From the NCBI GenBank assembly GCA_016182235.1, contig JACOXT010000003.1, positions 451,488 to 515,487 on the forward strand: a DNA stretch of 64,000 nucleotides. The letters are read 5' to 3'. Position 1 is the stretch's first letter; each line of letters starts with the position of its first letter. Made by a program: the position numbers and the translations under genes. Positions 2,363-61,957 of this stretch are shown piece by piece. The notes under the pieces were generated by a model. That model had not been told where the DNA came from, did not search any database, and saw only the letters and a list, made by a program, of their open reading frames with translations. This DNA is from Candidatus Levyibacteriota bacterium (lineage in GTDB: Bacteria > Patescibacteriota > Microgenomatia > Levybacterales > UBA12049).

Positions 2363-3564
2363 TTATGACTATTGGGATCAATGGATACGAAGCTGTAATG
2401 CCGAGGTTTGGATATGATTTTGAAACAAAACTGCCAAGAAGGGTCGGCAGCGGTGAATATTGTTTTGAACTCCTACTATATCTTAACAAAATTGATAAGA
2501 AAAACAAATATATAATATTTCTTCCCAAAACTCCAACAATGGATTTACCTAGGCAATCAGATAGCTGGCGATATAGGATTGTTGGGCCAAAGCGCTTTTG
2601 GACGATTTTTGGGTTATCAATGGAATTTTTGCTTAGGCGGTCTAAGGTAGACGTATTTTTCTCCCCAACTCATTATTTGCCTTTTTTTTTGCCAGTAAAA
2701 TCCGCTGTTTCTGTTTTAGATGTTTCCTTTATTCATTTTCCTAAGCTTTTTAAAAAGAAAGATCTGTATCAGCTTAAGAGTTGGACAGCTTATTCGGTAA
2801 GGAAAGCATCAAAAGTGTTAACGATTAGCCTGGCGTCAAAAGATGATATAATTAAGACATACAATGTTTCGAAGGAAAAGGTGATAGTTACATATCCCGG
2901 AGTAAAATCCGAAATTCAAATATCGAAATTCGAAACAAATGCAAAATTCAAAATGCAAAATTCAAAATTTCTTAAAGATAAGTACGGGGCTGAAGGGAAT
3001 TATATTTTGTTTGTGGGGACATTACAGCCCAGAAAAAATATAGTCCGTCTTATCGAGGCCTTTAGCCATATTTCTTCTTCTTTAATCATTAATCCTGCCT
3101 CGCCGGCAGGCAGGCCTTTATCGTTAATCATTGTGGGTAAAAAGGGTTGGTTATATGAGGAAATTTTGGAGACTCCCAAAAAGCTTAATATTGAGACGAA
3201 AGTAAAGTTTTTAGAAAATATTTCAGATGAAGATTTGCCTTATTTTTATAAAAACGCTTTATGTTTTGTTTTACCTAGCCTATATGAAGGGTTTGGCCTG
3301 CCAATTTTGGAAGCAATGAGATATGGGTGTCCGGTTATCACAAGTAATATCTCCTCGCTTCCCGAGGCAGGAGGAGACGCGGCTCTATACGTAGATCCTC
3401 TCAATGTAGACGATATTGCCAAAAAATTGGAATTAGTAATTAATAATGAAGATTTAAGGAAAAAACTTATAAAAAAAGGTTACGAACAAGTTAGGAAATT
3501 CAGTTGGGAGAAAACAGCAAGAGAAACATTAAGGGTATTGGAAGGTGTAGTAAATAATGAGTAG
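2359..3564 (+). CDS. GT4-family glycosyltransferase
   Basis: 401 aa with the C-terminal GT4 signature EGFGLPILEAMRYGCPVITS. Carries two in-frame mini-insertions (2905-2972 and 3082-3132). Confidence 0.85.
   Translation: MIMTIGINGYEAVMPRFGYDFETKLPRRVGSGEYCFELLLYLNKIDKKNKYIIFLPKTPTMDLPRQSDSWRYRIVGPKRFWTIFGLSMEFLLRRSKVDVFFSPTHYLPFFLPVKSAVSVLDVSFIHFPKLFKKKDLYQLKSWTAYSVRKASKVLTISLASKDDIIKTYNVSKEKVIVTYPGVKSEIQISKFETNAKFKMQNSKFLKDKYGAEGNYILFVGTLQPRKNIVRLIEAFSHISSSLIINPASPAGRPLSLIIVGKKGWLYEEILETPKKLNIETKVKFLENISDEDLPYFYKNALCFVLPSLYEGFGLPILEAMRYGCPVITSNISSLPEAGGDAALYVDPLNVDDIAKKLELVINNEDLRKKLIKKGYEQVRKFSWEKTARETLRVLEGVVNNE
2905..2972. repeat. AT-rich in-frame insertion with GAAATTC/AAAATTC tandem units in GT4
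   Basis: tccGAAATTCaaatatcGAAATTCgaaacaaatgcAAAATTCaaaatgcAAAATTCaaaatttc encodes SEIQISKFETNAKFKMQNSKF. Confidence 0.6.
3082..3132. repeat. GC-rich hairpin mini-insertion with perfect 9-bp direct repeat (TTAATCATT) inside GT4 CDS
   Basis: TTAATCATTaatCCTGCCtcgccGGCAGGcaggcctttatcgTTAATCATT. Repeat-to-repeat distance is 42 nt (14 codons), so it is in frame. Confidence 0.7.
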
Positions 3565-4127: not shown

Positions 4128-5018
4128 GTGATAGAACTCTCTATAATTATTCTTTCTTATAATACCAAAGATTTAACGCGTCGATGCATCCAATCAGTAA
4201 GAAAGCAATATAAAAAAGAACTGATAGACAAAAAATTGGAAATTATAGTTATTGACAATAATTCATCCGATGATTCTGCATCTTTATTGTCAGATCTTAA
4301 AAAAGAAATACTCGCCTCGCGGCGAAGCGGGTCAAATTTTACACTAATTCAAAATAGAGAAAATTTAGGATTTGCTAAAGGTTGCAATTTCGGCGCTAAA
4401 AACGCTAAAGGAAAATATCTTCTTTTTCTAAATTCTGATACTACAGTTCTAGATAGGGGATTTTTACGGATGACAGAATTTTTAGATAATCACAAAGAAG
4501 CTGGTATTTTGGGTGGAAGACTTCTGAATCCAAATGGTACTCCCCAACGATCGGGTGGAAAGTTTTATAACCTATGGTACCTTTTTTTAATGCTTTTAGG
4601 GTTGGAGGTGTTAGTAAGAAGATCACCTACTAAGATAGATAAGATTGATTGGGTAAGTGGGGCTTGCTTGATGATAGGAAAGAATCAATTCAATAATCTA
4701 TCTGGTTTTGATGAACATTTTTTCATGTACATAGAAGACATGGAATTATGCTATAGGATGAGAAAACTTGGTTTTTCAACTTATTTTTATCCTTTTGTTG
4801 GGATTGAGCATAAAACCCTAGGTAGCAGCAACAGATCATTTGCTATAATTAATATTTATAAGGGAATTCTCTATTTTTATTCAAAACACAAAAATCATCT
4901 AGAGTATTTAGTTGCCAAAACATTGCTTATCTCAAAAGCAGAAATTTTAATTTTGGTAGGATTTTTGACATTTAGCTCTGGGCTAAGGGATAGATACAGA
5001 AAGGCGGTAATGTTTTAA
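4128..5018 (+). CDS. GT2-family glycosyltransferase
   Basis: N-terminal IIILSYNTKD and VIDNNSSDDS with a DXD-like FLNSDT. Contains a GC-palindrome insertion at 4311-4332. Confidence 0.8.
   Translation: MIELSIIILSYNTKDLTRRCIQSVRKQYKKELIDKKLEIIVIDNNSSDDSASLLSDLKKEILASRRSGSNFTLIQNRENLGFAKGCNFGAKNAKGKYLLFLNSDTTVLDRGFLRMTEFLDNHKEAGILGGRLLNPNGTPQRSGGKFYNLWYLFLMLLGLEVLVRRSPTKIDKIDWVSGACLMIGKNQFNNLSGFDEHFFMYIEDMELCYRMRKLGFSTYFYPFVGIEHKTLGSSNRSFAIINIYKGILYFYSKHKNHLEYLVAKTLLISKAEILILVGFLTFSSGLRDRYRKAVMF
4311..4332. repeat. GC-rich palindromic core CTCGCCTCGCGGCGAAGCGGGT inside GT2 CDS
   Basis: Same core family as the copies at 29026-29047 and (reverse complement) 45518-45538. Confidence 0.6.
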
Positions 5019-8237: not shown

Positions 8238-9719
8238 ATGAGGAAGTTTGAGATTTTTGCGTTGGCAGTTATTCTTATTGGGGCGTTTACAGTTAGGTTA
8301 TATAGGTTCGACTGGCCGGTTGCGGATTGGCACAGTTGGCGTCAGACTGACACATCGGCAGTTTCCCGAAATTTTGTAAGAGAAGGTTTCGACATATTCC
8401 GTCCCAAATTTGATGATTTATCTTCCGGTGTTTCTTTAATCGATAACCCAGAAGGTTACAGGTTTGTTGAATTTCCTATCTATAATGTGTTTCAAGCCAT
8501 TCTTTATCAGCAAATCGGTAAATTTACACTTGAGGAATGGGGAAGAGTAGTAACTATCTTTTCTTCCCTAATTTCGATAGTTTTTCTTTACCTTCTAGTT
8601 GCAAAGTACACGAATTCTCGCACCGGACTTTTGGCTTCTTTTTTCTTTGCTCTCATTCCATATAATATTTTTTATGGTCGCACCATTCTTCCCGATCAAT
8701 CTATGGTTGCATCACTTCTTGCAGGAACATACTTTTTTTCAAATTGGATGGAAAATAAAGACTTCAAATTTTCGATTTTCAATCTTCAATTTTTTCTAGC
8801 TGTCTTACTTATGGCGATGGCTTTACTTTTGAAGCCTTACGCTTTGTTTTTTACTTTGCCTTTGGTTTATCTTGCATGGAGTCGTTTTGGCTTTGGCTTT
8901 TTAAAAAAATGGCAGCTTTGGGCTTATTTTATTCTGGCAATTTTGCCTTTGATCTTGTGGCATATATGGATGAGTCAAAGGGAGTTTATTCAAGGAATTC
9001 CGCGTAATGATTGGTTATTTAATGGTAACGGCATTAGATTTAAAGGAGCATTTTTTCATTGGCTTTTTGGAGACAGAATAGGTCGTCTTATCTTGGGATA
9101 CTGGGGATTGCCTTTTGTTGTTTTGGGAATCATAAGGAAAATCAATAGAAAAGAAAATTGGTTTTTTTATTTTTTTATAGTTTCCTCTCTTGCCTATATG
9201 ACAATTTTAGCAACAGGAAATATCCAGCACGATTATTATCAAATTCTTATTGTTCCAACCCTTTCAATTTTTCTTGCAAAGGGTGTAGACCTTATACTTA
9301 GCAGTAAAGAATTTTTTAACCGGTCAGTTTCTTATATAATAATTGCTGGTGGAATTATTTTTATGTTAGCCTTCGGTTGGTTTGGGGTCAGGGATTATTA
9401 CAGCATTCAGCACCCGAACCTTATAGCTGCGGGACTCGCAGTTGACGAGCTTACTCCGAAAGATGTAAAAATTATTGCGCCCTATGGCGGGGATACAACC
9501 TTGTTATACCATACCAATCGAAAAGGCTGGCCGGTTTTTGACAGATCTTTTAAGGATTTTAAGAAAGCAGGAGCATCTTATATTGCCTTTGCTGATCCAA
9601 CGCCAGAGGAACTAAATTTAGAAACGTTATTCGAGCCTGTAATTATCACCCCTCAATACGCAATATTTGATCTTACAAAACCCACTCTGCAAGGCTTAAG
9701 AGAACAGAAAAAAGATTAA
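8238..9719 (+). CDS. GT39/GT83-like (ArnT/PMT-type) membrane glycosyltransferase
   Basis: N-terminus RLYRFDWPVADWHSWRQTDTSAVSRNF is the typical PMT_2/ArnT-like signature. Has about 11 TM helices. Contains a heptamer tract at 8763-8795. Confidence 0.7.
   Translation: MRKFEIFALAVILIGAFTVRLYRFDWPVADWHSWRQTDTSAVSRNFVREGFDIFRPKFDDLSSGVSLIDNPEGYRFVEFPIYNVFQAILYQQIGKFTLEEWGRVVTIFSSLISIVFLYLLVAKYTNSRTGLLASFFFALIPYNIFYGRTILPDQSMVASLLAGTYFFSNWMENKDFKFSIFNLQFFLAVLLMAMALLLKPYALFFTLPLVYLAWSRFGFGFLKKWQLWAYFILAILPLILWHIWMSQREFIQGIPRNDWLFNGNGIRFKGAFFHWLFGDRIGRLILGYWGLPFVVLGIIRKINRKENWFFYFFIVSSLAYMTILATGNIQHDYYQILIVPTLSIFLAKGVDLILSSKEFFNRSVSYIIIAGGIIFMLAFGWFGVRDYYSIQHPNLIAAGLAVDELTPKDVKIIAPYGGDTTLLYHTNRKGWPVFDRSFKDFKKAGASYIAFADPTPEELNLETLFEPVIITPQYAIFDLTKPTLQGLREQKKD
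8763..8795. repeat. TTCAATT/TTCGATT heptamer tract inside GT39-like CDS (encodes FKFSIFNLQFF)
   Basis: ttcaaattttcgattttcaatcttcaatttttt. Related to the ileS AATTTTC tract. Confidence 0.6.
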
Positions 9720-11879: not shown

Positions 11880-13033
11880 AAATTGGTATTGACGCAAGAC
11901 TTTGGAACGAAGGAGGGGTAGGAAGATACATAAGAAATCTAATTAAGCAAATTCAGCCTTTAGATAAAAGTAATCTTTATACTTTGTTTGTTTTGTCTAA
12001 AGACTATGAAAGTATTAAGTACGAAGTATCAAGTATTAAGGAGGAAAATTGGGAACTTATAAAGACAAATATTCGGTGGCATTCGATTGAGGAGCAGTTA
12101 AAGTTTGCTAACATTTTAAACAAAGAAGAATTAGATTTGGTGCATTTTCCCTATATTTCGGTGCCGTTGAATTATCAAAAGCCATTTATCATTACAATAC
12201 ACGATTTAATTCCATATCATTATCCTTCTTCAAATGCTTCCGCTCTCCCTTTCCCTATTTACTTCTTAAAATTATTGGCATATAAATTTGTGGTGAGAGC
12301 CGCAGCAAGAAAAGCGCAAAAAATTATCGCGCCCTCAAATTTTACAAAAAAGGAAATTGTAGAACATCTAAAAATTGATCCAAGAAAAGTAATAGTAACT
12401 TACGAAGGAGTAAATAGTAAAATTACAAATTCAAAATCTCAAATTCCAAAAAAATCCCAAAATACTAAATACAAAATACTAAATACAAAATACTTTTTAT
12501 ATGTAGGAAACGCGTTTCCGCATAAGAATCTTGAGGTATTGATAGAAGCTTTCAATCTTTTCCGTCAAGAGCATCCTGGTATTTTTCTTGTCTTTGTCGG
12601 CAAGGAGGATTTCTTCTACAGTCGATTAAAAAATGAGGTTTACAAGCGTAAAATTTCAGACGTAGTTTTTTTACATAATATAATTGATGGGCAATTAGTA
12701 AGTTTGTACAGAAGCGCAATTGCATTTGTTTCACCTTCTCTTATGGAAGGATTTGGTCTGCCGGTTCTTGAGGCAATGGTAAATAGATGTTTGGTTTTGG
12801 CATCGGATATTCCAACACATCGAGAAATTTGTGGCAAGGTTGCCTTATACTTTGATCCTAATAATGTTGGGGATCTAACTCAAAAACTAGAATCCATTCA
12901 CTCTAATGATATGTATTATTATAGTGAAAAAAAAAGGGGGTTTGATCGAGCGAAAGTGTTCTCTTGGGAAAAGATGGCAAGAGAAACTTTAAAAATATAT
13001 GAAAGTTGCGTTGGTTTACGACAGAGTGAATAA
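11876..13033 (+). CDS. GT4-family glycosyltransferase
   Basis: C-terminal EGFGLPVLEAM. Contains the AT-rich in-frame insertion at 12418-12493. Confidence 0.8.
   Translation: MKIGIDARLWNEGGVGRYIRNLIKQIQPLDKSNLYTLFVLSKDYESIKYEVSSIKEENWELIKTNIRWHSIEEQLKFANILNKEELDLVHFPYISVPLNYQKPFIITIHDLIPYHYPSSNASALPFPIYFLKLLAYKFVVRAAARKAQKIIAPSNFTKKEIVEHLKIDPRKVIVTYEGVNSKITNSKSQIPKKSQNTKYKILNTKYFLYVGNAFPHKNLEVLIEAFNLFRQEHPGIFLVFVGKEDFFYSRLKNEVYKRKISDVVFLHNIIDGQLVSLYRSAIAFVSPSLMEGFGLPVLEAMVNRCLVLASDIPTHREICGKVALYFDPNNVGDLTQKLESIHSNDMYYYSEKKRGFDRAKVFSWEKMARETLKIYESCVGLRQSE
12418..12493. repeat. AT-rich ~70-bp in-frame insertion (A/C/T heptamer-like tracts) in GT4, homologous to the murE copy at 29515-29585
   Basis: aaaattacaaattcaaaatctcaaattccaaaaaaatcccaaaat... 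encodes KITNSKSQIPKKSQNTKYKILNTKY. The murE copy is aaaattccaaactcaaaatctcaaattacaaataaatccaaaatt. Confidence 0.65.
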
Positions 13034-27910: not shown

Positions 27911-28486
27911 ATGGCTGGGAGGACGCATGATTTGGGTGCTTTTACTGCGCTAACTTATACGGTGGCTACGCAGCCCCTACACGAGATGACGCTTGCGACA
28001 GCGATCGTTGCCTTTTTGGCTAACATGGTTGGAGGGTTGGCGCCTGATATTGACCAGCCAACCGGAAATTTGTGGAACAGAGTTCGGGGAGGAAGGTTGG
28101 TTAGCAGACTTGTTACTCCTCTTCTTGGAGGACATCGTTTTATCTCACATTCGTTATTAGGCATATTACTATTTGGGTTCGTTGTGAGTAAACTTCTAGA
28201 TACTGTGAGTTCAGTTCTACTCGTTGATATGAATATTGTTTGGTGGGCTTTTATGATAGGATTTGTGTCTCACCTAATGCTAGATACACTTAGTCGAGAA
28301 GGAGTTCCATGGCTATTTCCGATTCCAATTCGTATCGGAATTCCTCCATTTCGGTTTCTCCGTATAAAAACCGGTGGTATAGTCGAAAAATCATTTGCCT
28401 TTCCCATGCTTTTGATTGCAAATATTTATATGTATTATATCCACTACCCCAAATTTATGGACTTCTTACGGCACTACATAAAGTAG
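27911..28486 (+). CDS. membrane-bound metal-dependent hydrolase, DUF457/YdjM-like
   Basis: 191 aa, GC-rich compared with its neighbours. Has His-rich TM helices. The family assignment is from memory. Confidence 0.5.
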   Translation: MAGRTHDLGAFTALTYTVATQPLHEMTLATAIVAFLANMVGGLAPDIDQPTGNLWNRVRGGRLVSRLVTPLLGGHRFISHSLLGILLFGFVVSKLLDTVSSVLLVDMNIVWWAFMIGFVSHLMLDTLSREGVPWLFPIPIRIGIPPFRFLRIKTGGIVEKSFAFPMLLIANIYMYYIHYPKFMDFLRHYIK

Positions 28487-28518
28487 AGAAGAGGTTAAGA
28501 AAAGGGTATAATGGGGAC

Positions 28519-29757
28519 ATGCTACAGAGAATTAAGAATATTTATCACCTTGGAAATGGCATTCTGGGTAATTTGCGGTTTGGGTTTCCATCACATAAGC
28601 TTACTGTAATAGGCGTTACCGGAACTGATGGTAAAACAACAACTACAAGTCTAATATACCATGTCCTTTCTACATCTGGACGAAATGCATCGATGATAAG
28701 CTCAGTTGGGGCAGTAATAGGAGGAAGAGAGTATGATGTGGGATTTCATGTTACAACTCCTTCTTCCTGGGCGCTTCAGAAGTTTATTAAAGAGGCAGAA
28801 AAGGGCTTTCTGGTTCTTGAGACGACGTCTCATGCCTTGGATCAATTTAGAGTTTGGGGAATAAAATTTGACATTGGAGTTTTAACCAATATCACCCATG
28901 AACACCTAGATTACCACAAGACTTACCATAAATACGTTGAGGCAAAAGCAAAGCTTCTTGAAATGAGCCGAGTAGCGATTGTGAATAGAGACGACAAATC
29001 ATACCCGTTAATAAATTCGAAATTCGCTCGCCTCGCTGCGAAGCGGGAAATTCGAAATTCGAAATTAATTACCTATGGGATGAAAGATAATGCGGATTTA
29101 AATCCAAAAAAATTTCCATTTAAAACAAATATGATTGGAGAGTTCAATATTTACAACAGTCTTGCCGCAATAGCGGTATGTAGAGCTCTTGGTATTCCAG
29201 ATGAAGATATTAGAACGGGTTTAAAGTCATTTAAGCCTCCGATTGGCAGAGAAGAAGTAGTTTATAAGAAAGATTTTACCGTTATGATTGATTTTGCACA
29301 TACACCTAACGCCTTTGAGGAAATTCTGAGTTCAATTAAACCGAGTATAAAAGGCAGACTTATTCACGTATTTGGGTCGGCGGGACTTAGAGACAATACC
29401 AAAAGACCAATTATGGGGAGAGTCTCATCAAAATATGCGGATATTATTGTTTTGACCTCTGAAGATCCAAGATCGGAATCGGTTGAGAAGATTTCAGACG
29501 AGATAGAATCAGGAATAAAAATTCCAAACTCAAAATCTCAAATTACAAATAAATCCAAAATTCAAATATATAAAATTCCAAATCGACAAGAAGCAATTCA
29601 ATTTGCTATTAAGATTGCTAGAAAAGGAGATTTGGTCTTGACAACGGGGAAATCGCACGAAAAATCAATGAATTATGGACATGGAGAAGTTCCGTGGGAC
29701 GAGTACAGCGCTGTACGAAAAGCATTAAAAGGTTTGGGATTAAAGATTAAGGATTAA
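28519..29757 (+). CDS. murE: UDP-N-acetylmuramoyl-tripeptide ligase (MurE-type Mur ligase)
   Basis: P-loop VIGVTGTDGKTTT and a C-terminus GDLVLTTGKSHEKSMNYG resembling MurE GKGHE. Start set at ATG 28519 (MLQRIKN). Carries two in-frame mini-insertions (29014-29066 and 29515-29585). Confidence 0.75.
   Translation: MLQRIKNIYHLGNGILGNLRFGFPSHKLTVIGVTGTDGKTTTTSLIYHVLSTSGRNASMISSVGAVIGGREYDVGFHVTTPSSWALQKFIKEAEKGFLVLETTSHALDQFRVWGIKFDIGVLTNITHEHLDYHKTYHKYVEAKAKLLEMSRVAIVNRDDKSYPLINSKFARLAAKREIRNSKLITYGMKDNADLNPKKFPFKTNMIGEFNIYNSLAAIAVCRALGIPDEDIRTGLKSFKPPIGREEVVYKKDFTVMIDFAHTPNAFEEILSSIKPSIKGRLIHVFGSAGLRDNTKRPIMGRVSSKYADIIVLTSEDPRSESVEKISDEIESGIKIPNSKSQITNKSKIQIYKIPNRQEAIQFAIKIARKGDLVLTTGKSHEKSMNYGHGEVPWDEYSAVRKALKGLGLKIKD
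29014..29066. repeat. mini-insertion in murE: GAAATTC heptamer duplications flanking GC palindrome GCTCGCCTCGCTGCGAAGCGGG
   Basis: aaattcGAAATTC[gctcgcctcgctgcgaagcggg]GAAATTCGAAATTCGAAATT. In frame. Confidence 0.7.
29515..29585. repeat. AT-rich in-frame insertion in murE, homologous (~85% over ~50 nt, same reading frame) to 12418-12493
   Basis: Encodes KIPNSKSQITNKSKIQIYKIPNRQ. The tail tccaaaattcaaatata matches tccgaaattcaaatatc of the copy at 2905-2972. Confidence 0.65.
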
Positions 29758-41264: not shown

Positions 41265-41420
41265 ATGGGTAAAAGTAAAAAAATTATTGTAAAAGGAAGC
41301 AAAATCGGTATCATCTTACATATTGGGGATAATGATTTTATCTCTCTAACCGATATGGCAAAATATAAAACTTACTGGTTTGGGGACTGGTTTGGGGACG
41401 GTCCTCGGAGGTGTTGTTAA
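41265..41420 (+). CDS. 51-aa ORF resembling a KilA-N/Bro-N-like N-terminal fragment (possible mobile-element remnant)
   Basis: MGKSKKIIVKGSKIGIILHIGDNDFISLTDMAKYK... The 3-prime end overlaps the TTTGGGGAC repeat motif. The assignment is weak. Confidence 0.2.
   Translation: MGKSKKIIVKGSKIGIILHIGDNDFISLTDMAKYKTYWFGDWFGDGPRRCC
41378..41410. repeat. GGTTTGGGGAC x2 + GGTCCTCGGAG motif (copy 1 of 3)
   Basis: ggtttggggactggtttggggacggtcctcggag. Confidence 0.6.
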
Positions 41421-45006: not shown

Positions 45007-46143
45007 ATGAAAGTTGTAGTAATAGGAGGCCATTTATCTCCAGCGTTATCCGTAATCGAAGCGCTGCCAAAAGAGGTAAGTATATTATTTGTTGGAAGAA
45101 AATATTCTTTTGAGGGAGATAAGTCAAAATCTTTGGAATACGAGACCATTAATTCTCTTAAGTTTCCTTTTGCTGAGATTACTACAGCAAGGTGGCAAAG
45201 AAAGTTTACAAGACACACTATTAATTCGCTCTTTAAATTTCCTATTGGAGTTATTCAGTCGTTATTTATTTTATTAAGATTTAAGCCAGATGTTGTTGTT
45301 GGATTTGGAGGGTATGTGTCTCTGCCAGTTGCTATATCTTCTTTTATCCTAAGAGTTCCCGTTGTAATTCACGAGCAGACTTTGGAGGCAGGTTTTTCAA
45401 ATAGAATAATTTCGGTATGGGCTTCTAAGATATGTATATCATGGGAGTCATCACGCTCATTTTTTCCAAAAGAAAAAACGGTATTGACAGGAAACCCGAT
45501 ACGGAAGTTCGAAGTTCCCGCTTCGCAGAGAGGCGAGCGAAGTATGAAGTATGAAGTTGATAAGAAGGTTCCTACAATTTATATAACCGGTGGAAGTTCG
45601 GGATCGCATTTTATCAACAAATTAGTCGAAGGTTGTATTGGGGAACTGCTGAGAAAATTCAACATAATCCATCAGATTGGAGAGTCAAAATTTGGCGATT
45701 TTGAACGCTTAGTAAAGCTTCGTGAGACATTTTCTTTTGATCAACGCAAAAGATATATTTTAAAAAAATTTGTTAAACCGTCCCAAGTTGCCTCAATTTT
45801 AAAATATTGCGATTTAGCTATATCACGTTCGGGTATAAATACAATAACAGAACTTATTTATTTTGAAAAACCAGCTATTCTAATACCCCTCCCATTTTCT
45901 CAAAATAACGAACAATTGAAAAACGCAAGATTTTTGGAGACGTTCAAATTAGGAAAAGTATTGTCTCAAAACGAAGCTGACTCAAGAAGCTTATCTCAAA
46001 TGGTAGACTTAATATTTGATAATATAAAAGAGCATAAGTTAAATGAGAGCGAATCAGCGAAGAGGCAAATAGAAAATGCGGCTCAAAATATAGTTAAGAT
46101 TGTTGAATATGTCGGTGAAACAAAGAAAGTCCCGAAATTATAG
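45007..46143 (+). CDS. murG: undecaprenyldiphospho-muramoylpentapeptide beta-N-acetylglucosaminyltransferase
   Basis: N-terminal VIGGHLSPALSV and a GT28 C-terminal domain. Carries the GC-palindrome insertion at 45504-45558. Confidence 0.8.
   Translation: MKVVVIGGHLSPALSVIEALPKEVSILFVGRKYSFEGDKSKSLEYETINSLKFPFAEITTARWQRKFTRHTINSLFKFPIGVIQSLFILLRFKPDVVVGFGGYVSLPVAISSFILRVPVVIHEQTLEAGFSNRIISVWASKICISWESSRSFFPKEKTVLTGNPIRKFEVPASQRGERSMKYEVDKKVPTIYITGGSSGSHFINKLVEGCIGELLRKFNIIHQIGESKFGDFERLVKLRETFSFDQRKRYILKKFVKPSQVASILKYCDLAISRSGINTITELIYFEKPAILIPLPFSQNNEQLKNARFLETFKLGKVLSQNEADSRSLSQMVDLIFDNIKEHKLNESESAKRQIENAAQNIVKIVEYVGETKKVPKL
45504..45558. repeat. mini-insertion in murG: GAAGTTC/GAAGTAT heptamer duplications flanking GC palindrome CCGCTTCGCAGAGAGGCGAGC (reverse orientation of the murE core)
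   Basis: GAAGTTCGAAGTTC[ccgcttcgcagagaggcgagc]GAAGTATGAAGTATGAAGTT. In frame. Confidence 0.7.
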
Positions 46144-53169: not shown

Positions 53170-56097
53170 ATGTTCGAAGTTGTAGATCCAAAATTAAATT
53201 TCCCCAAGCTCGAAGAGGACCTTCTTAAAATGTGGTACAAAGAGGGAATTGTGAAAAAATATCTTCAAAAAAATAATTCTTCCAAGAAGAAATTTTCTTT
53301 TCTTGATGGGCCAATAACTGCTAACAATCCCATGGGTGTTCACCATGCCTGGGGAAGAACTTACAAAGATCTCTGGCAAAGATTTTGGAACATGAGAGGC
53401 TATAAGCAAAGATTCCAGAATGGATTTGATGAACAAGGGCTTTGGGTCGAGGTAGAAGTTGAAAAAGAATTGGGTTTGAAGAATAAGAAAGATATTGAAA
53501 ATTTAATTCCGGGCAATAAGTTTGCAAGTCTTGAGAAATTTATAAATCTTTGTAAAGAAAGAGTAAGAAAATTTTCTAAGATTCAAACCGAACAAAGCAA
53601 GAGGCTTGGATATTTTATGGACTGGGACAACTCTTATCATACCTCTTCGGATCGAAATAACTACACAATCTGGAATTTCTTAAAAATCGTCAATGAAAAA
53701 GGCTGGCTTTACAAGGGACGAGACAGTGTGCCGTGGTGCCCAAGATGCGGGACTGCAATTTCTCAACATGAAATTTTGACTGAGGAATACAAAGAACTTA
53801 CTCATAAAACAGTCGTTTTTAAACTTACAATTAAAGGGAGAAACAAAGAATATTTACTTGCTTGGACTACAACGCCCTGGACAATTCCGGGAAATGTCGC
53901 GCTTGCAGTTGACAATAATCTATCGTATTGGAAGATGGAAAACGCCAAAGGCGAGAAAATAATTATTGTTAATCCGACAGCAAATGGTGATCTTAATAAG
54001 GAAGCTATGCTTGTTAATAGGCTAGGATTAATAGAAGGTTATGTAAAAGTAGAGGAACTTAAGGGAAAAGATCTTGTAGGACTTGGATACGAGGCGCCTT
54101 ATGATAGTTTGCCTTCTGTTAAAAAAACCCTTGGGAATTATACGCATCGGGTAGTTGCAACTGATCCCCAAGTATTACCGATTAATCCAGCTGAGGGTAC
54201 TGGAATTGTCCATATTGCTCCTGGCGCGGGCGCGGAAGATTTTAAGCTTAGCAAGAAAGAAAAAATACCTGCAATTGAGGAAATTGACGAAAGTGGTGTA
54301 TTTATAGACGGATTTGATTTTATGTCTGGAAAGCATGTTAAAAAAGCAATGCCTCAGATTTTGGAGGACCTTGAAAAACGTAACTTTGCTTTTAAAATTT
54401 TTGACTATATGCATCGCTATCCTACATGCTGGAGGTGTAAAACTGAGTTAGTCTGGAGAGTAGTTGATGAATGGTATATAGCAATGGATAAAGCATTAAA
54501 GTCAAAAGTCAAAAGTCAAAAGTCAAAAGTTGAAGAAAATAAAACATATAGAGAACAGATGATTGAGGTAGCTAAGAAGATTAACTGGATACCTAAATGG
54601 GGATTAGATAGGGAACTTGATTGGCTTTCCAACATGCACGATTGGCTTATAAGCAAAAAGCGTTTTTGGGGACTGGCATTACCAATTTGGGAATGCAAAG
54701 AGTGCGGAAGTTTTGAGGTGATTGGCGGACGGGAGGAGCTTAAAGTTCGAGCATTTAGCGGTTGGAAGGAGTTCGATGGAAATAGCCCCCATAGACCATG
54801 GATTGATCAAATAAAAATAAAATGCAAAAATTGTAGATCAATAATGTCACGAATACCTGATGTTGGAAACCCATGGCTTGATGCAGGTATTGTTCCTTTC
54901 TCAACATTGCCCGCTGGTTGGTTTCCAGCAGATTTTATTACTGAAAGTTTTCCAGGGCAATTTAAAAATTGGTTTTACTCTCTTATTGCAATGGCAACAG
55001 CTATTAAAAATGAACCTCCTTTTAAAACAGTTTTGGGGTTTGCTTCAGTTCGAGACGAAAAAGGAGAGGAAATGCATAAATCAAAAGGAAATGCTATTGA
55101 ATTCAATGAAGCCGCAGGCAAGATTGGGGGAGACGTCATGAGGTGGCTTTACACGACTCAAAAGCCTGAACTCAATCTTAATTTTGGTTATGGACCCGCA
55201 ACAGACGTAAAAAGAAGATTCTATTTAATACTTTGGAACAGTTATAAATTTTTTGTTGACTACGCAAAAGCTTCTTCATGGGAATGTGGAAGAAATGTTA
55301 AAGATTTAACAATACTAGATAAATGGATTCTGGCAAGATTAACAGAAGTAGTTTTCTTGGTAAATGAATCTTTAGAAAGATTCGATGCAAGTCGCGCCTC
55401 TTTCGCAATAGAGGAATTTGTAGTGAAAGATTTTTCTACATGGTACATAAGAAGATCTCGAGACAGGGTTTCGCCAATTTCAGACGCAAATGACAGAAAT
55501 ACTTGTTTTTCAGTTATGTACGGAGTCTTGGTTACGCTTTCCAAATTACTTGCTCCTTTTACGCCATTTATTGCTGAGGAAATATTTAGAAATTTGGCAA
55601 ATGAAGAATCAGTACATTTACAAAGTTATCCGAAGGGCGACAAGTCGCTATTGAATAGAAATCTTATTGAGGATATGAAGAAAGTAAGGGAAGTTGTCGA
55701 AGCTGGACACGCAAAACGAAAAGAAATTGGGATAAGAGTAAGACAACCGCTACCCAAATTTTCAATTTTCAATTTTCAATTTTCAATTGAAGAGAAGCTA
55801 ATAGATCTTATTAGGGATGAGTTAAATGTTAAAAATGTTATTTTCAAGATGAGAAAAGGACCGTTTTCTGTGGAGTTCGATACGGAGATTACAAACGATC
55901 TTAAAAATGAAGGTGAGGCAAGAGAAATAGTTAGAAGAATTCAGCAGGAACGAAAAATTATAGGTACGACATTGAATGAGAGGGTAAATGTCACTTTGGA
56001 GAGTTGGCCGGCTTCATATAGCAATTACATTAAAAGAAATGCGTTAGTTGGAAGTCTCAAAAAAGGAGACGAATTTTCGGTCGCAAGGCAGAAATGA
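53170..56097 (+). CDS. ileS: isoleucyl-tRNA synthetase, type 2 (eukaryote/archaeal-like)
   Basis: FLDGPITANNPMGVHHAWGRTYKDL..GFDEQGLWVE matches the type-2 IleRS N-terminus. KMSKS-like HKSKGN present. Carries in-frame repeat tracts at 54498-54531 and 55757-55789. Confidence 0.85.
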   Translation: MFEVVDPKLNFPKLEEDLLKMWYKEGIVKKYLQKNNSSKKKFSFLDGPITANNPMGVHHAWGRTYKDLWQRFWNMRGYKQRFQNGFDEQGLWVEVEVEKELGLKNKKDIENLIPGNKFASLEKFINLCKERVRKFSKIQTEQSKRLGYFMDWDNSYHTSSDRNNYTIWNFLKIVNEKGWLYKGRDSVPWCPRCGTAISQHEILTEEYKELTHKTVVFKLTIKGRNKEYLLAWTTTPWTIPGNVALAVDNNLSYWKMENAKGEKIIIVNPTANGDLNKEAMLVNRLGLIEGYVKVEELKGKDLVGLGYEAPYDSLPSVKKTLGNYTHRVVATDPQVLPINPAEGTGIVHIAPGAGAEDFKLSKKEKIPAIEEIDESGVFIDGFDFMSGKHVKKAMPQILEDLEKRNFAFKIFDYMHRYPTCWRCKTELVWRVVDEWYIAMDKALKSKVKSQKSKVEENKTYREQMIEVAKKINWIPKWGLDRELDWLSNMHDWLISKKRFWGLALPIWECKECGSFEVIGGREELKVRAFSGWKEFDGNSPHRPWIDQIKIKCKNCRSIMSRIPDVGNPWLDAGIVPFSTLPAGWFPADFITESFPGQFKNWFYSLIAMATAIKNEPPFKTVLGFASVRDEKGEEMHKSKGNAIEFNEAAGKIGGDVMRWLYTTQKPELNLNFGYGPATDVKRRFYLILWNSYKFFVDYAKASSWECGRNVKDLTILDKWILARLTEVVFLVNESLERFDASRASFAIEEFVVKDFSTWYIRRSRDRVSPISDANDRNTCFSVMYGVLVTLSKLLAPFTPFIAEEIFRNLANEESVHLQSYPKGDKSLLNRNLIEDMKKVREVVEAGHAKRKEIGIRVRQPLPKFSIFNFQFSIEEKLIDLIRDELNVKNVIFKMRKGPFSVEFDTEITNDLKNEGEAREIVRRIQQERKIIGTTLNERVNVTLESWPASYSNYIKRNALVGSLKKGDEFSVARQK
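54498..54531. repeat. (AAAGTC)x5 hexamer tandem repeat inside ileS (encodes KSKVKSQKSKV)
   Basis: Seen directly: aaagtcaaaagtcaaaagtcaaaagtcaaaagt. Confidence 0.8.
55757..55789. repeat. (AATTTTC)x4.7 heptamer tandem repeat inside ileS (encodes KFSIFNFQFSI)
   Basis: Seen directly: aattttcaattttcaattttcaattttcaattg. Confidence 0.8.
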
Positions 56098-57167
56098 ATA
56101 GGAGATTTTATTTTGATATTGACTGGGCACTAATTACTCCCATAATGGTTCTAGCTACGTTAAGTCTGGTTACACTTTTTTCTATTAATATAGAGTTATT
56201 CAAAAACCAACTTCTTTTTTTAATTATAGGAATAATAGCTTTTTTATTTTTTTCTAAAGTAAATTACAGCATAATTAAGTTATACTCATTCCCAATCTAT
56301 ATTGCTTCGGTCGTGTCTTTTGTCCTGGTGCTATTTATCGGCATCGAGAGTCGCGGATCTTCAAGGTGGTTTGAGATTTTAGGTTTTAGATTTCAATTTT
56401 CTGAAATATTCAAGCCTTTTCTTGCGATTTCGTTATCTTCCTACCTTGGATCAAAAGAGAGTTATTCTTTAAAAACATTTTTTATTGTATTTTGTTTGTT
56501 GGTGCCTTTAGCTTTTTTAATTTTTATGCAGCCAGATTTGGGTAACGCTTTAATATATGGCATGGTGGTAGTATTGACACTTTTGGCATATGGATTTCCA
56601 AAACGTTTCTTCTTGGGGCTCCTTGTGTTAGGCTTTTTAGCATTTCCAGTAGTTTTTAGATTTTTGCATGACTATCAGAGAGAGCGCATCTTAACTTTTT
56701 TGAATCCGTCGGATCCTCTAGGGCTTTCTTACAATATTATCCAGTCAGTGATATCTGTGGGATCTGGGATGTTATTTGGCCGCGGACTGGGCTTAGGTAC
56801 CCAATCCAGTCTTAGATTTTTACCCGAGTTACATACTGATTTTATTTTCGCAACCATTTCCGAGCAATTGGGCTTTGTTGGAGCAATTACTATAGTTTTA
56901 GCGTTTTTTGTATTACTCTATAGAATTTTGAAAATCATTTCTCATCAGGAAGAAATCTTTAGTAAAATATTTTCTATTGCTGCGTTCTTTTTGATATTTA
57001 TTCAGTTCTTTGTAAATATTGGGATGAATATTGGCATGCTCCCAATCGTTGGAATAACTCTTCCTTTTGTTTCTTATGGAGGAAGTTCACTTCTGTCCAG
57101 TTTTATTTTGATCGGACTTATTTCCGCAATTAACAAGAAAACATCCCAAGTGTTGGAAATAAGATAG
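56094..57167 (+). CDS. rodA: SEDS-family protein RodA (second SEDS paralogue)
   Basis: SEDS motifs (QPDLGNALIY, LPELHTDFIFA, LPFVSYGGSS). Lies outside the dcw cluster. Confidence 0.8.
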   Translation: MNRRFYFDIDWALITPIMVLATLSLVTLFSINIELFKNQLLFLIIGIIAFLFFSKVNYSIIKLYSFPIYIASVVSFVLVLFIGIESRGSSRWFEILGFRFQFSEIFKPFLAISLSSYLGSKESYSLKTFFIVFCLLVPLAFLIFMQPDLGNALIYGMVVVLTLLAYGFPKRFFLGLLVLGFLAFPVVFRFLHDYQRERILTFLNPSDPLGLSYNIIQSVISVGSGMLFGRGLGLGTQSSLRFLPELHTDFIFATISEQLGFVGAITIVLAFFVLLYRILKIISHQEEIFSKIFSIAAFFLIFIQFFVNIGMNIGMLPIVGITLPFVSYGGSSLLSSFILIGLISAINKKTSQVLEIR

Positions 57168-57570: not shown

Positions 57571-57629
57571 AGGGTAGATTTTCACAGTTCCAATAACTAA
57601 CTATCCAACTAACTAATTAACTATCTAAT

Positions 57630-60651: not shown

Positions 60652-60693
60652 TGGGGACCATTTTGGGGACCATTTTGGGGATGGTCCTCAGAG
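60652..60693. repeat. GGGGACCATTTT x2 + GGGGATGGTCCTCAGAG motif (copy 3 of 3), 57 nt upstream of the minus-strand DmpA-family gene
   Basis: tggggaccattttggggaccattttggggatggtcctcagag. GGACCAT and ATGGTCC can pair as a 7-bp hairpin. Confidence 0.6.
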
Positions 60694-60898: not shown

Positions 60899-61957
60899 AT
60901 GAATGTTTTATTTTTATCTCGCTTATTTTATCCCCATATTGGAGGTGTCGAGAAGCACGTTTTGGAAATAAGTAAGATTTTGGTTGAAAAAGGACACAAA
61001 ATAACAATTATTACAGAACAATACTCAAGAGACCTTCCGAAAGAAGAAGATTTTAACGGAATTAGAGTATTAAGAATATTTACAGGACAAGACGATTGGT
61101 TTAAGAAATTTAGAATCTGGAAAGAATTGTTTAAATTAAAAAAACTAATCAGAAATGCTAGCATAGTCCATTGTCACGATGTGTTTTTTTGGTACTTCCC
61201 ATTTCTTTTTTTATACCCCAAGAAAAAAGTATATGTGACATTTCATGGGTATGAAGATTACCCGATTCCCAAAAAGGCGGTATTGGTAAGAAGACTCTCT
61301 GAAAAATTATCTAAGGGAAATATATGTATTGGAGACTTTATGAAAAAATGGTATGGAACAGAACCAACATTTGTGACATACGGAGGGGTTGACAAATATC
61401 AAATATCAAACATTAAATATCAAAAAGATGAGAGATTAAAAGATCCAAATTCTGCAGTCTTTGTTGGCAGATTGGATGAGCAGACAGGAATAAAAACTTA
61501 TTTGAAAGCTTTTAAGATGATAAAGAAGAAAATTAAAAATTTTAAATTATTGGTGGTAGGAGACGGTAAATTCAAAAAACATATTGTTAAAAATGTTCGA
61601 GGAGTAGGTTTTCAGTTGAACCCAGAAAAATATATTAGAGAATACCGATTTGCATTTGTTTCTCGCTATCTATCAATTCTTGAAGCCTTTGTCTCAAAAA
61701 GACTAGTCTTTGCCGTTTACGATAACCCTTTGAAGGAAGATTATCTTAAAATGTCTCCATTTGCGAAATATATAATTGTTGCCAGAAATTCAAAAAAACT
61801 TTCGGACGCAGTTTTTTACTTTTTAAACAATCCGAATGAAGAGAAAAAAATGCTAAACAAAGCGTATAATTGGGTTAATAAGCAGACATGGGAAAAAGTG
61901 ACAGACACATATTTGAATCTTTGGGGTTTCAAGACAGAAAATATAATTTTTCCTTGA
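60899..61957 (+). CDS. GT4-like glycosyltransferase
   Basis: N-terminus MNVLFLSRLFYPHIGGVEKHVLEISKIL has the GT4 N-domain pattern. Carries the AAATATC heptamer tract at 61394-61421. Confidence 0.6.
   Translation: MNVLFLSRLFYPHIGGVEKHVLEISKILVEKGHKITIITEQYSRDLPKEEDFNGIRVLRIFTGQDDWFKKFRIWKELFKLKKLIRNASIVHCHDVFFWYFPFLFLYPKKKVYVTFHGYEDYPIPKKAVLVRRLSEKLSKGNICIGDFMKKWYGTEPTFVTYGGVDKYQISNIKYQKDERLKDPNSAVFVGRLDEQTGIKTYLKAFKMIKKKIKNFKLLVVGDGKFKKHIVKNVRGVGFQLNPEKYIREYRFAFVSRYLSILEAFVSKRLVFAVYDNPLKEDYLKMSPFAKYIIVARNSKKLSDAVFYFLNNPNEEKKMLNKAYNWVNKQTWEKVTDTYLNLWGFKTENIIFP
61394..61421. repeat. (AAATATC) heptamer tandem tract inside GT4-like CDS (encodes KYQISNIKYQ)
   Basis: aaatatcaaatatcaaacattaaatatc. 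Confidence 0.7.

What the first reader, a model, noticed from the sequence alone, without database searches (positions are those of the whole stretch)
54498..55789. Two different microsatellite tracts inside isoleucyl-tRNA synthetase, (AAAGTC)5 and (AATTTTC)4.7, kept in frame
A type-2 IleRS carries a pure hexamer tract (KSKVKSQKSKV) at 54498-54531 and a pure heptamer tract (KFSIFNFQFSI) at 55757-55789. Heptamer tracts shift the frame with every unit gained or lost, so this locus could be a slippage-prone contingency site in an essential gene. The alternative is that the tract is a fixed remnant of the GAAATTC-type insertion process. AATTTTC is the complement of the GAAAATT/GAAATTC flanks seen at the GC elements. 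Similar heptamer tracts are in the GT39-like gene (8763-8795) and the GT4-like gene (61394-61421).
Basis: seen in the sequence. Interest (0 to 1): 0.6.

Follow-up and report, generated by a model that had tools for sequence, protein, structure and literature searches.

The report
Stable heptamer repeat patches in IleRS
Two perfect 7-base tandem repeats sit in frame inside the essential isoleucyl-tRNA synthetase gene of a Levybacteria (CPR) genome; they are stable members of a widespread class of about 33-base heptamer arrays, not an on/off switch.

Summary
Both tracts are real, pure and in frame. Tract 1 is a heptamer, (AAAGTCA)x4.7 (33 nt), not a hexamer. Tract 2 is (AATTTTC)x4.6 (32 nt).

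- The identical 32-nt tract 2 sits at the same codons in an orthologue that is 66% identical in protein.
- Tract 1 plus tail is a 36-nt exact match in a Roizmanbacteria ileS (57% identity), the only match of 14 nt or more in that gene.
- Array length does not vary within clusters of 90% or more identity.
- Any slip of one or two units truncates the enzyme.

The tracts belong to a discrete class of 30-34-nt heptamer arrays found across CPR genomes, resembling cyanobacterial STRR and Xanthomonas heptamer repeats. Here they lie mostly in frame inside genes.

The arrays evolve in concert. The unit can change in every copy while length is kept. They also receive clean 21-24-nt GC-rich inserts.

My best explanation is locally seeded slippage arrays, filtered for frame and homogenised at the DNA level. 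The mechanism is inferred, not shown. I rate it a new variant of a known kind, of moderate interest.

The parts
53170..56097 (+). ileS, type-2-like isoleucyl-tRNA synthetase (975 aa), host gene of both tracts
   Evidence: ORF, translation. TIGR00392 ileS scores 639.6 bits against a cut-off of 621.4. Pfam domains: tRNA-synt_1 18-662, Anticodon_1 717-862, DUF5915 896-956. PDB 1ile E 8e-154 and 8c8w E 6e-153. A 100% identical protein is named Candidatus Levybacteria.
54498..54530 (+). Tract 1: (AAAGTCA)x4.7, 33 nt, pure. It encodes KSKVKSQKSKV (aa 443-453) in a variable loop of the catalytic-domain region.
   Evidence: TRF and exact scan. It lies in an 18-residue gap relative to 1ile and 8c8w and is an 11-aa excess over most orthologues. 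The model gives pLDDT below 50 and no secondary structure for residues 439-457. The same 36-nt DNA is in L017.
55757..55788 (+). Tract 2: (AATTTTC)x4.6, 32 nt, pure. It encodes KFSIFNFQFSI (aa 863-873) just after the anticodon-binding domain, with no net length change against most close orthologues (about 1 aa longer than the Daviesbacteria type).
   Evidence: TRF and exact scan. It aligns without a gap to 8c8w and to most of the closer orthologues. The model gives strand 861-867, then a turn, with pLDDT 84-90. The identical 32-nt array is in L001 and a decayed copy is in L002.
61393..61424 (+). (CAAATAT)x4.6 array, 84% pure, in the interdomain linker of a GT4-type glycosyltransferase gene (60899-61957)
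   Evidence: TRF. In-frame peptide DKYQISNIKYQ. Orthologue L085 has an array with another unit (AAATTAC/AAATTCA) at the same place.
8767..8793 (+). (AATTTTC)-like array, 3.9 copies, 80% pure, inside ORF 8238-9719.
   Evidence: TRF, sequence, ORF.
2904..2969 (+). Composite A-rich heptamer array (AAAATTC / AAATGCA units, 66 nt) in ORF 2359-3564, after a 'YPGV' motif
   Evidence: TRF rows of period 7, 14 and 32, sequence, ORF.
12420..12494 (+). Two adjoining heptamer arrays (AAATTCC-like, then AAATACT/AAATACA) in ORF 11876-13033, after a 'YEGV' motif. A further array (AAGTATT)x4.4 lies at 12010-12040 in the same ORF.
   Evidence: TRF, sequence, ORF.
29013..29066 (+). (AAATTCG) heptamer array split at a unit boundary by a 21-nt GC-rich element (29027-29047), in ORF 28309-29757. 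Without the element it is a 4.7-unit array.
   Evidence: Sequence, element search, split-array scan.
45503..45558 (-). Heptamer array (AACTTCG/TACTTCA units on the minus strand) split by the same GC element in reverse orientation (45517-45537), in ORF 45007-46143
   Evidence: Sequence, element search with 1 mismatch.
4311..4331 (+). Third copy of the GC-rich element (CTCGCCTCGCGGCGAAGCGGG) in ORF 4128-5018, without a clear flanking array
   Evidence: Zero matches were expected by chance in 100 shuffles.

Best explanation
**What the tracts are.** Both tracts are short heptanucleotide tandem arrays of the STRR / dispersed heptameric SSR kind, with 4-5 units (30-34 nt). They are made and maintained at the DNA level, not by selection on the peptide.

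**Proposed mechanism.**
1. A local heptamer is amplified by replication or repair slippage up to a focal length just under five units. (Inferred.)
2. In this coding-dense genome an array survives only if four conditions hold. Its unit has no stop codon in any frame. The net length change is a multiple of three. The site tolerates the change. The encoded peptide fits. (The outcome is shown. The filter is inferred, supported by enrichment of the 4.x-unit class in coding DNA.)
3. Because 7 and 3 are coprime, every frame of a heptamer array gives the same cyclic heptapeptide. The array can therefore be read in any phase. (Shown.)
4. In ileS one array fills a disordered surface loop of the catalytic-domain region. 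The other overwrites a strand-turn segment just after the anticodon-binding domain. (Shown by alignment and model.)
5. Once present, arrays are homogenised without length change. I infer out-of-register repair or conversion within the array, or between arrays, with off-length products removed by selection. This keeps arrays pure, lets the unit change in all copies at once, and can drive convergence on the same unit in different lineages. (The pattern is shown. The process is inferred.)
6. Arrays also serve as landing sites for 21-24-nt GC-rich mini-inserts. (Shown for one recent event; precise excision from the other copy is not excluded.)

The tracts are not phase-variation switches. Their cost is an occasional lethal frameshift.
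For: **A DNA-level property.**
- Given the same peptides and the window's codon usage, the observed lag-7 identity is reached in 2 of 20000 random back-translations for tract 1 and 11 of 20000 for tract 2.
- A 7-residue-periodic peptide would enforce only 21-nt periodicity.

**A discrete class.**
- In 956 kb of CPR-like loci, pure period-7 runs fall off from 16 to 22 nt and then reappear at 32-34 nt (8 arrays), with one each at 27 and 40 nt. No other period from 5 to 11 has any run above 24 nt.
- 32 of 56 strong TRF arrays have period 7.
- Metagenome samples give the same clustering, with a sharp fall above 34 nt.
- Coding arrays are enriched for the 4.x-unit class relative to non-coding ones: 35:26 against 17:35, Fisher p=0.013.

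**Stability.**
- The identical 32-nt tract 2 is in L001 (66% aa, 46% third-position identity).
- The 36-nt tract 1 plus tail is in L017 (57% aa, 38.5% third-position identity) and is the only exact match of 14 nt or more in that gene.
- The encoded repeat peptide is identical within clusters of 90% or more identity: 4 site-1 and 5 site-2 copies for P0108, 6 and 5 for P0058, and 2 each for P0114, P0021 and P0039.

**Concerted evolution.**
- Site 1 carries AAGTCAA in the window, L010 and L017, against AACTCAA in L003, with the same length and flanks.
- Site 2 carries, in one register, CAATTTT (window, L001), GAATTAA (L039, L041, L061), AAATTAA (L034) and AAGTTAA (L069, L011).
- L207 and L208 are 94.4% identical in DNA, yet a third ileS site carries (AAAATCA)x4.6 in one and (AAGTATC)x5 in the other.

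**Local seeding.**
- The base-state loop DNA already holds about one unit: GACAAAAGTGGG or GATAAATCGGGT.
- About a dozen of 120 orthologues have arrays of different units and lengths at site 1, each nested among neighbours with the base state.

**Tolerance of the sites.** See the model.

**Precedent.** Heptamer SSRs are over-represented in many bacteria, and the Xanthomonas arrays mostly have four units (PMC4692102).
Against: - The net excess at site 1 is 33 nt, which is not a multiple of 7. At site 2 the net change against close orthologues is zero. Simple addition of units to the present 'empty' alleles therefore does not reproduce the arrays.
- Stepwise slippage through out-of-frame intermediates should be lethal in ileS.
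- The cut-off near 34 nt also holds in non-coding DNA, and my model does not explain it.
- The same unit recurs in distant lineages while close relatives differ. The 'PS' 5' flank recurs with arrays in lineages that do not group together. Both could instead mean lateral spread of small DNA patches or an active process.
- I have no read-level or strain-level DNA for this genome; the search for it found nothing.
- Whole-genome counts were not possible. Most of my loci are centred on ileS, so gene-level enrichment is confounded.
Confidence: 0.68

Rival explanations
1. Contingency locus. The tracts are hypermutable switches whose unit number changes turn IleRS, or its C-terminal domain, on and off. 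This would generate adaptive heterogeneity.
For: Both units are 7 nt, so each unit gained or lost shifts the frame. Heptanucleotide repeats drive phase variation elsewhere, for example at the H. influenzae hmw1A promoter (PMC8262952, listed).
Against: - The same unit number is found in orthologues 57-66% identical in protein and within clusters of 90% or more identity.
- The arrays have only 4.6-4.7 units.
- The tracts lie mid-gene and near the 3' end of an essential housekeeping gene.
- Slips of one or two units give stops within 6-26 codons. For tract 1 this removes the KMSKS region.
- Arrays of the same class occur in many unrelated genes and in spacers.
Confidence: 0.04
2. Footprint of a tiny mobile element. 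The heptamer arrays are produced by repeated insertion and excision of the GC-rich mini-element, for example through 7-bp target duplications left behind. On this view the IleRS tracts are empty scars.
For: - GC-rich inserts sit inside arrays in the window at 29027 and 45517, in L207, and in L002, L060, L076 and L116.
- Three copies of one element occur in 64 kb, against none expected by chance.
Against: - In the pair 94% identical in DNA, the 24-nt insert is a clean addition at a unit boundary with the same five units on both alleles. There is no target duplication.
- Arrays far outnumber occupied arrays.
- Arrays occur in genomes and loci where no such element was seen.
- No transposase gene is in the window.
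Confidence: 0.08
3. Functional peptide. The repeats are kept because the encoded peptides are needed. Candidates are a Lys/Ser-rich loop contacting tRNA at site 1, and a strand-turn-strand module at site 2.
For: - Site 2 peptides keep a pattern of hydrophobic-x-hydrophobic-x-N across CPR.
- Site 2 is modelled with high confidence as a strand.
- A frame change leaves the cyclic peptide unchanged, so the L017 frame difference does not exclude peptide selection.
Against: - The 7-nt purity is not explained by the peptide.
- 93 of 120 close orthologues lack any site-1 insert, and others carry quite different inserts there.
- Site 1 is modelled as disordered.
- The same array class occurs in spacers with stop-containing units.
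Confidence: 0.08
4. Active writing or lateral patch transfer. A dedicated process, either templated patch synthesis or conversion from other arrays or an SDR-like mobile system, installs heptamer-periodic patches of about 33 nt. Identical arrays in distant lineages would then reflect recent acquisition rather than descent or convergence.
For: - The tract is the most conserved DNA between ileS genes that are otherwise saturated at third positions.
- Site-1 arrays are patchily distributed and share flanks.
- Final array length (30-34 nt) is constant while the net insertion varies: 0, +3, +8, +9 or +11 aa.
- A whole-array unit switch is seen at 94% identity.
- The length cut-off also holds in non-coding DNA.
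Against: - No candidate enzyme is linked to the arrays.
- Units resemble the local base-state sequence.
- Unit diversity is large.
- The same length mode is seen in Xanthomonas and in Nostocales-like contigs, which have quite different gene contents.
Confidence: 0.12

Closest known systems
STRR (short tandemly repeated repetitive) heptanucleotide sequences of heterocystous cyanobacteria (Mazel 1990; Vioque 1997, STRR inside the RNase P RNA gene). The definition is from memory; the Vioque title is cited in PMC2858038.
   Same: - Tandem 7-nt units, a few copies each, dispersed at many loci.
- They can sit inside an essential gene at a structurally permissive place.
- Nostocales-like contigs in my metagenome sample carry STRR-type units (GGGACTG, CCCTACT) with the same 30-34-nt lengths.
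   Different: - Different phylum (CPR/Patescibacteria) and A/T-rich units.
- Here most arrays are in frame inside protein-coding genes, persist at orthologous codons across candidate phyla, and show concerted unit change.
GGGAATC heptamer repeats of Xanthomonas and GGGGA(T/C)T repeats of Nostoc (Rehm et al. 2015, PMC4692102), and the general excess of heptameric SSRs in bacteria (Mrazek 2007, as summarised there)
   Same: - Period 7, dispersed, with most arrays having four units.
- Inverted pairs occur, as in L069 upstream of ileS.
- The origin is unexplained; polymerase slippage has been proposed.
   Different: - Those repeats are G-rich, quadruplex-forming and 89-93% intergenic.
- The IleRS tracts are A/T-rich, fold to 0 kcal/mol and are translated.
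Phase-variable SSR contingency loci, for example the heptanucleotide repeats at H. influenzae hmw1A (PMC8262952)
   Same: The unit length is not a multiple of three, so a one-unit slip would change expression.
   Different: No unit-number variation, short tract, essential gene, and lethal truncation on slippage.
Small dispersed repeats (SDR, 21-27 nt) of Nostoc punctiforme, often nested in heptamer repeats (Elhai et al. 2008). From memory; the paper is not held.
   Same: This applies to the GC-rich inserts, not to the tracts themselves. The shared features are size (21-24 nt), multiple copies, insertion into heptamer arrays, and no target duplication in the one allele pair seen.
   Different: Different phylum and sequences. 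Here the inserts are in frame inside coding arrays. I could not check the family definition against the paper.
Rickettsia palindromic elements inserted in frame in protein genes (Ogata et al. 2000). From memory.
   Same: Non-coding-type repetitive DNA tolerated in frame at permissive surface sites of housekeeping proteins.
   Different: RPEs are palindromic elements of about 100-150 bp from one sequence family. The tracts here are 33-nt tandem arrays of locally varying units.

Membership tests
Isoleucyl-tRNA synthetase, type 2 (eukaryote-like/MupA-like) | Full-length match to the ileS equivalog model above its curated cut-off | tested here: met
   TIGR00392 scores 639.6 bits against a cut-off of 621.4.
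Isoleucyl-tRNA synthetase, type 2 (eukaryote-like/MupA-like) | Closer to type-2 than to type-1 enzymes; C-terminal DUF5915-type region | tested here: met
   PDB 1ile and 8c8w match at E about 1e-153, against the 921-aa and 917-aa IleRS chains (8c9f, 1ffy) at 1e-64 to 1e-68. MupA/MupB are the next NCBIfam hits. PF19302 matches residues 896-956. Assigning the PDB entries to types is from memory.
Bacterial contingency (phase-variable SSR) locus | A repeat whose unit changes shift the frame or promoter spacing | tested here: met
   The unit is 7 nt. Simulated slips of one or two units give premature stops.
Bacterial contingency (phase-variable SSR) locus | Unit number varies among strains or close relatives | tested here: not met
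   The repeat peptide is identical within clusters of 90% or more identity. The same copy number is found in orthologues 57-66% identical in protein. No DNA from strains of this genome was available.
Bacterial contingency (phase-variable SSR) locus | Sits in a dispensable gene (surface, restriction-modification or host interaction), usually near the 5' end or promoter | tested here: not met
   The host gene is ileS. The tracts are at codons 443-453 and 863-873 of 975.
Dispersed heptameric SSR / STRR-type arrays | Head-to-tail repeats of a 7-nt unit | tested here: met
Dispersed heptameric SSR / STRR-type arrays | Many arrays per genome, with period 7 in excess over other periods | tested here: met
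   In the window, 5 of 7 pure repeats have period 7. In related loci, 32 of 56 strong arrays have period 7, and only period 7 has pure runs above 24 nt. Whole genomes were not available.
Dispersed heptameric SSR / STRR-type arrays | Modal size about four to five units | tested here: met
   There is a peak at 32-34 nt in CPR loci and at 30-34 nt in metagenome samples. Most Xanthomonas arrays have four units (PMC4692102).
Dispersed heptameric SSR / STRR-type arrays | Predominantly intergenic location | tested here: not met
   All clear arrays of the window lie inside ORFs. 23 of 32 strong arrays in related loci lie inside long ORFs. This is why I call it a variant rather than a plain member.
SDR-like very small mobile elements (applies to the GC inserts only) | Multi-copy element of 21-27 nt that inserts without target duplication, often into heptamer arrays | tested here: inconclusive
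   Three copies in the window. One clean 24-nt presence/absence in an array between alleles 94% identical in DNA. Further split arrays are seen. Copy number beyond the window, sequence relatedness among the inserts, and the published definition could not be checked.

The most novel reading that the evidence does not exclude
CPR bacteria, and perhaps many other bacteria, may have an unrecognised DNA process that writes or converts patches of about 33 nt into heptamer-periodic sequence at constant length. It may be coupled to 21-24-nt GC-rich mini-elements that insert without target duplication, and it would operate even inside essential genes. On this reading, identical arrays in ileS of different candidate phyla reflect recurrent action or lateral spread of small DNA patches, not descent.
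Probability: 0.15. Interest if true: 0.8.

Novelty: new variant of a known kind. Interest (0 to 1): 0.5.

Why it matters
Heptamer tandem repeats (STRR and the Xanthomonas repeats) have been known for decades, but their origin and the reason for their size remain unexplained.

Here the same kind of array lies inside conserved, alignable, essential genes. Every array therefore has a dated, codon-resolved history across hundreds of orthologues. That makes four things directly measurable:
- gain and loss of arrays;
- unit turnover;
- the length rule;
- invasion by GC mini-inserts.

There are practical consequences too:
- In-frame patches of 11 codons and mini-inserts inflate and diversify CPR proteins without any functional meaning.
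- They can mislead alignment, phylogeny and domain annotation.
- They place a standing frameshift risk inside essential genes of organisms thought to have limited DNA repair.

Tried and rejected
- **Strain variants.** A metagenome search with the window-specific left junction of tract 1 found nothing, so unit-number polymorphism in this species is untested.
- **Papers not held.** Elhai 2008, Mrazek 2007 and Vioque 1997 could not be read. What I say about them is from memory or from papers that cite them.
- **FtsW 'array'.** The TRF hit at 56370-56393 is chance periodicity in a conserved peptide with no insert. I dropped it.
- **GC-rich 'RPSRKASDGK' allele at ileS site 1.** I tested it as a dispersed element. 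In my loci it occurs only at that site, so I did not call it mobile.
- **Y1 transposase.** These genes occur near ileS in some relatives but not in the window. No link can be made.
- **Hairpin formation by the tracts.** Both fold to 0 kcal/mol.
- **Enrichment of arrays in ileS.** 17 of 32 strong arrays lie in ileS, but the loci were chosen around ileS and sites 1 and 2 account for 13. I make no claim from this.
- None is open.
- **Literature.** The held library has no paper on simple sequence repeats in Patescibacteria.


Full report
**Observation**

The region holds two perfect tandem repeats. TRF reports 54498-54530 (period 7, 4.7 copies, 100% matches) and 55757-55788 (period 7, 4.6 copies, 100%). 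An exact scan gives 33 and 32 nt.

The sequence is aaagtca x4 plus aaagt, so it is a heptamer, not a hexamer. Both tracts lie in ORF 53170-56097 and encode LKSKVKSQKSKVE and KFSIFNFQFSI.

Third-order Markov simulations of the window gave no comparable array of any period. Five of the seven pure tandem repeats of 18 nt or more in the window have period 7.

**The gene and where the tracts sit**

The gene is ileS. TIGR00392 scores above its cut-off, and the next matches are MupA/MupB. The best solved structures are T. thermophilus IleRS and a 1032-aa IleRS. The genome is a Candidatus Levybacteria MAG.

- Tract 1 (aa 443-453) lies within the tRNA-synt_1 region, in an 18-residue gap relative to both solved structures.
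- Tract 2 (aa 863-873) follows the Anticodon_1 domain directly and aligns to the solved structure without a gap.
- An AlphaFold model from 30 orthologues is only moderate overall (mean pLDDT 70). It gives residues 439-457 pLDDT below 50 and no secondary structure. Tract 2 starts as a confident strand (861-867, pLDDT 84-90) followed by a turn.

**Orthologues, site 1**

- Among 120 orthologues of 60% or more identity, 93 have a short base-state loop (MD[KR][KD]D[DEK]SGKTYR).
- About a dozen carry heptamer-derived peptides of different units and lengths: KSKVKSQKSK, NSKLKAQNSKL, KSKIKNQKSKI, SSKFKAQSS.
- Nine carry a GC-rich 'RPSRKASDGK' allele.
- Each array-bearing sequence is nested among neighbours with the base state.
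- Orthologues outside Microgenomates have no insert at this site.
- L003 (Daviesbacteria) has (AACTCAA)x4.6 where the window has (AAGTCAA). The length and flanks are the same, and nearly every unit differs by the same G/C base.
- L010 (Woykebacteria) has the window's unit with two mismatches.
- L017 (Roizmanbacteria) is 57% identical in protein and 38.5% identical at third positions. It has the identical 36 nt (array plus TTGAA tail), read in a different frame after compensating flank indels. This is the only exact match of 14 nt or more in the whole gene.
- Because 7 and 3 are coprime, all three frames of a heptamer array give the same cyclic heptapeptide. The frame change therefore alters only the phase.

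**Orthologues, site 2**

- The window's 32-nt array is present unchanged in L001, which is 66% identical in protein and 46% identical at third positions. It is the longest exact match between the two genes; the next longest is 23 nt at the KMSKS motif. L002 has a decayed copy.
- The three closest relatives (73-75% identity) have degenerate arrays of another unit, GAATTAx.
- Across CPR, at the same place and in the same register after the QPL motif, the units are CAATTTT, GAATTAA, AAATTAA or AAGTTAA. Nealsonbacteria and Staskawiczbacteria are among these lineages.
- Most of the closer orthologues show no length difference at this site. The Daviesbacteria type is about one residue shorter, and several more distant CPR orthologues differ in length.

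**Close relatives**

- Within clusters of 90% or more identity, the array peptides are invariant.
- One pair, L207 and L208, is 94.4% identical in DNA and shows two events. At site 2, one allele has a clean 24-nt GC-rich insert at a unit boundary of an otherwise identical 4.7-unit array, with no target duplication. At a third site (aa about 705-720), the arrays have different units in every copy, AAAATCA against AAGTATC, with a net difference of 9 nt.
- Arrays are therefore stable in length but turn over in sequence faster than their surroundings.

**A class, not a peculiarity of ileS**

- In 956 kb of CPR-like loci, pure period-7 runs decline from 16 to 22 nt and then form a separate peak at 32-34 nt. 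No other period from 5 to 11 exceeds 24 nt.
- 32 of 56 strong TRF arrays have period 7, and most are 31-34 nt.
- Arrays occur in frame in many genes. They also occur in spacers, where units often contain stop codons.
- A metagenome sample for AANTCAA x3 gave lengths clustered at 23-27 and 30-34 nt, none at 28-29 nt, and almost nothing above 34 nt.
- Arrays in the same contigs that were not selected by the search pattern behave alike.
- Some of those contigs look like Nostocales, with classic STRR units.
- Coding arrays are enriched for the 4.x-unit class relative to non-coding ones (p=0.013). Arrays of 5.x units are rare in both.
- Published work reports an excess of heptameric SSRs in bacteria, and a mode of four units in Xanthomonas (PMC4692102).
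- I found nothing on such repeats in Patescibacteria in the held library.

**DNA versus peptide**

Given the same peptides and the window's codon usage, random back-translation reaches the observed 7-nt identity in 2 and 11 of 20000 trials. Neither tract folds as a single strand.

**GC elements**

- The window has three copies of CTCGCCTCGC(T/G)GCGAAGCGGG, all inside ORFs.
- At 29027 the element splits what would otherwise be a 4.7-unit AAATTCG array, and at 45517 it sits within an array.
- Split arrays with other GC-rich inserts occur in several loci.
- Together with the L207/L208 pair, this suggests that arrays host the inserts rather than being their scars, although precise excision is not excluded.

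**Interpretation**

The contingency reading is rejected on four grounds: identical unit numbers in distant and close relatives, a short tract, an essential host gene, and stops within 6-26 codons after any slip of one or two units.

The best-supported account has four parts:
- slippage arrays seeded locally from the existing sequence;
- growth to a focal length just under five units;
- filtering for reading frame, absence of stop codons and structural tolerance;
- homogenisation at constant length.

The amplification and homogenisation mechanisms are inferred. Several facts remain unexplained:
- the 33-nt net excess at site 1;
- the constant final length despite variable net insertion;
- the recurrence of the same unit in distant lineages;
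- the cut-off at about 34 nt in non-coding DNA.

These leave room for an active or lateral process.

**Limits**

- I had no strain-level DNA for this genome.
- I had no whole genomes.
- Most loci were centred on ileS.
- Three key papers were not held.

Noticed in passing
window 4311-4331, 29027-29047, 45517-45537: Three copies of a 21-nt GC-rich element (CTCGCCTCGCTGCGAAGCGGG; 6-bp stem with a GCGA loop) lie in frame inside three different ORFs. Two of them sit inside heptamer arrays.
   Followed up: partly
L207 3739-3795 versus L208 (ileS site 2): Between ileS genes 94.4% identical in DNA, one allele has a clean 24-nt GC-rich insert (CCCTTCGGCCTCGCTCAGGGCAGG) at a unit boundary of a (CAATTTA) array, without target duplication. 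This is a recent insertion or a precise excision.
   Followed up: partly
L207/L208 ileS, about aa 705-720; also L028 10321-10352 and possibly L061 12025-12064: A third array hot spot in ileS lies before the KNVLDRW motif. L207 has (AAAATCA)x4.6 and L208 has (AAGTATC)x5 despite 94% identity. L028 has pure (AGTATCA)x4.6 at about the same position. L061 has a pure 40-nt array nearby, but I did not check that it aligns to the same site. The window has no array there.
   Followed up: partly
ileS site 1 in L012, L024, L037, L085, L209: A GC-rich, hairpin-capable allele (CGTCCTTCGCGTAAAGCTTCGGACGGCAAG, peptide RPSRKASDGK) replaces the loop in scattered Microgenomates. Its codons are unusual for AT-rich genomes. 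It is present in P0149 but absent from other members of the same 90% cluster.
   Followed up: partly
window 57594-57628: A (TAAC)x8.8 tetranucleotide array lies in the rplU-rpmA spacer, just upstream of the L27 gene. In relatives the sequence just upstream of the L27 gene holds heptamer arrays (L019, L056), and in L208 a Y1-transposase gene lies between rplU and rpmA that is absent from the near-identical L207.
   Followed up: partly
window 53335-53346 (IleRS aa 56-59): The class I signature reads GVHH rather than HxGH. From memory, this swapped motif marks mupirocin-hyper-resistant type-2 IleRS.
   Followed up: no
window 60652-60681 and 41374-41399: Two pure 12-nt tandem repeats, TGGGGACCATTT x2.5 and ACTGGTTTGGGG x2.2. 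The first lies in the spacer upstream of the GT4-type gene at 60899.
   Followed up: no
L069 9904-9971: Directly upstream of ileS in a Staskawiczbacteria genome, two heptamer arrays lie in inverted orientation, (CTAAACC)x5 and (TTTAGAA)x4.4. They could form a long hairpin, like the inverted pairs described in Xanthomonas.
   Followed up: no
window 2904-2969, 12420-12494, 61393-61424: Three ORFs that look like paralogous glycosyltransferases (only the one at 60899-61957 was compared with GT4-annotated orthologues) carry heptamer arrays at the same place, after a Y-x-G-V motif. The orthologue in L085 has an array with another unit there.
   Followed up: partly
L003 3114-3809 and 9226-9900; L009; L090; L208 7484-8152: Y1 (IS200/RAYT-like, PF01797) transposase genes of about 225 aa recur near ileS in Microgenomates relatives. 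None is in the window.
   Followed up: partly
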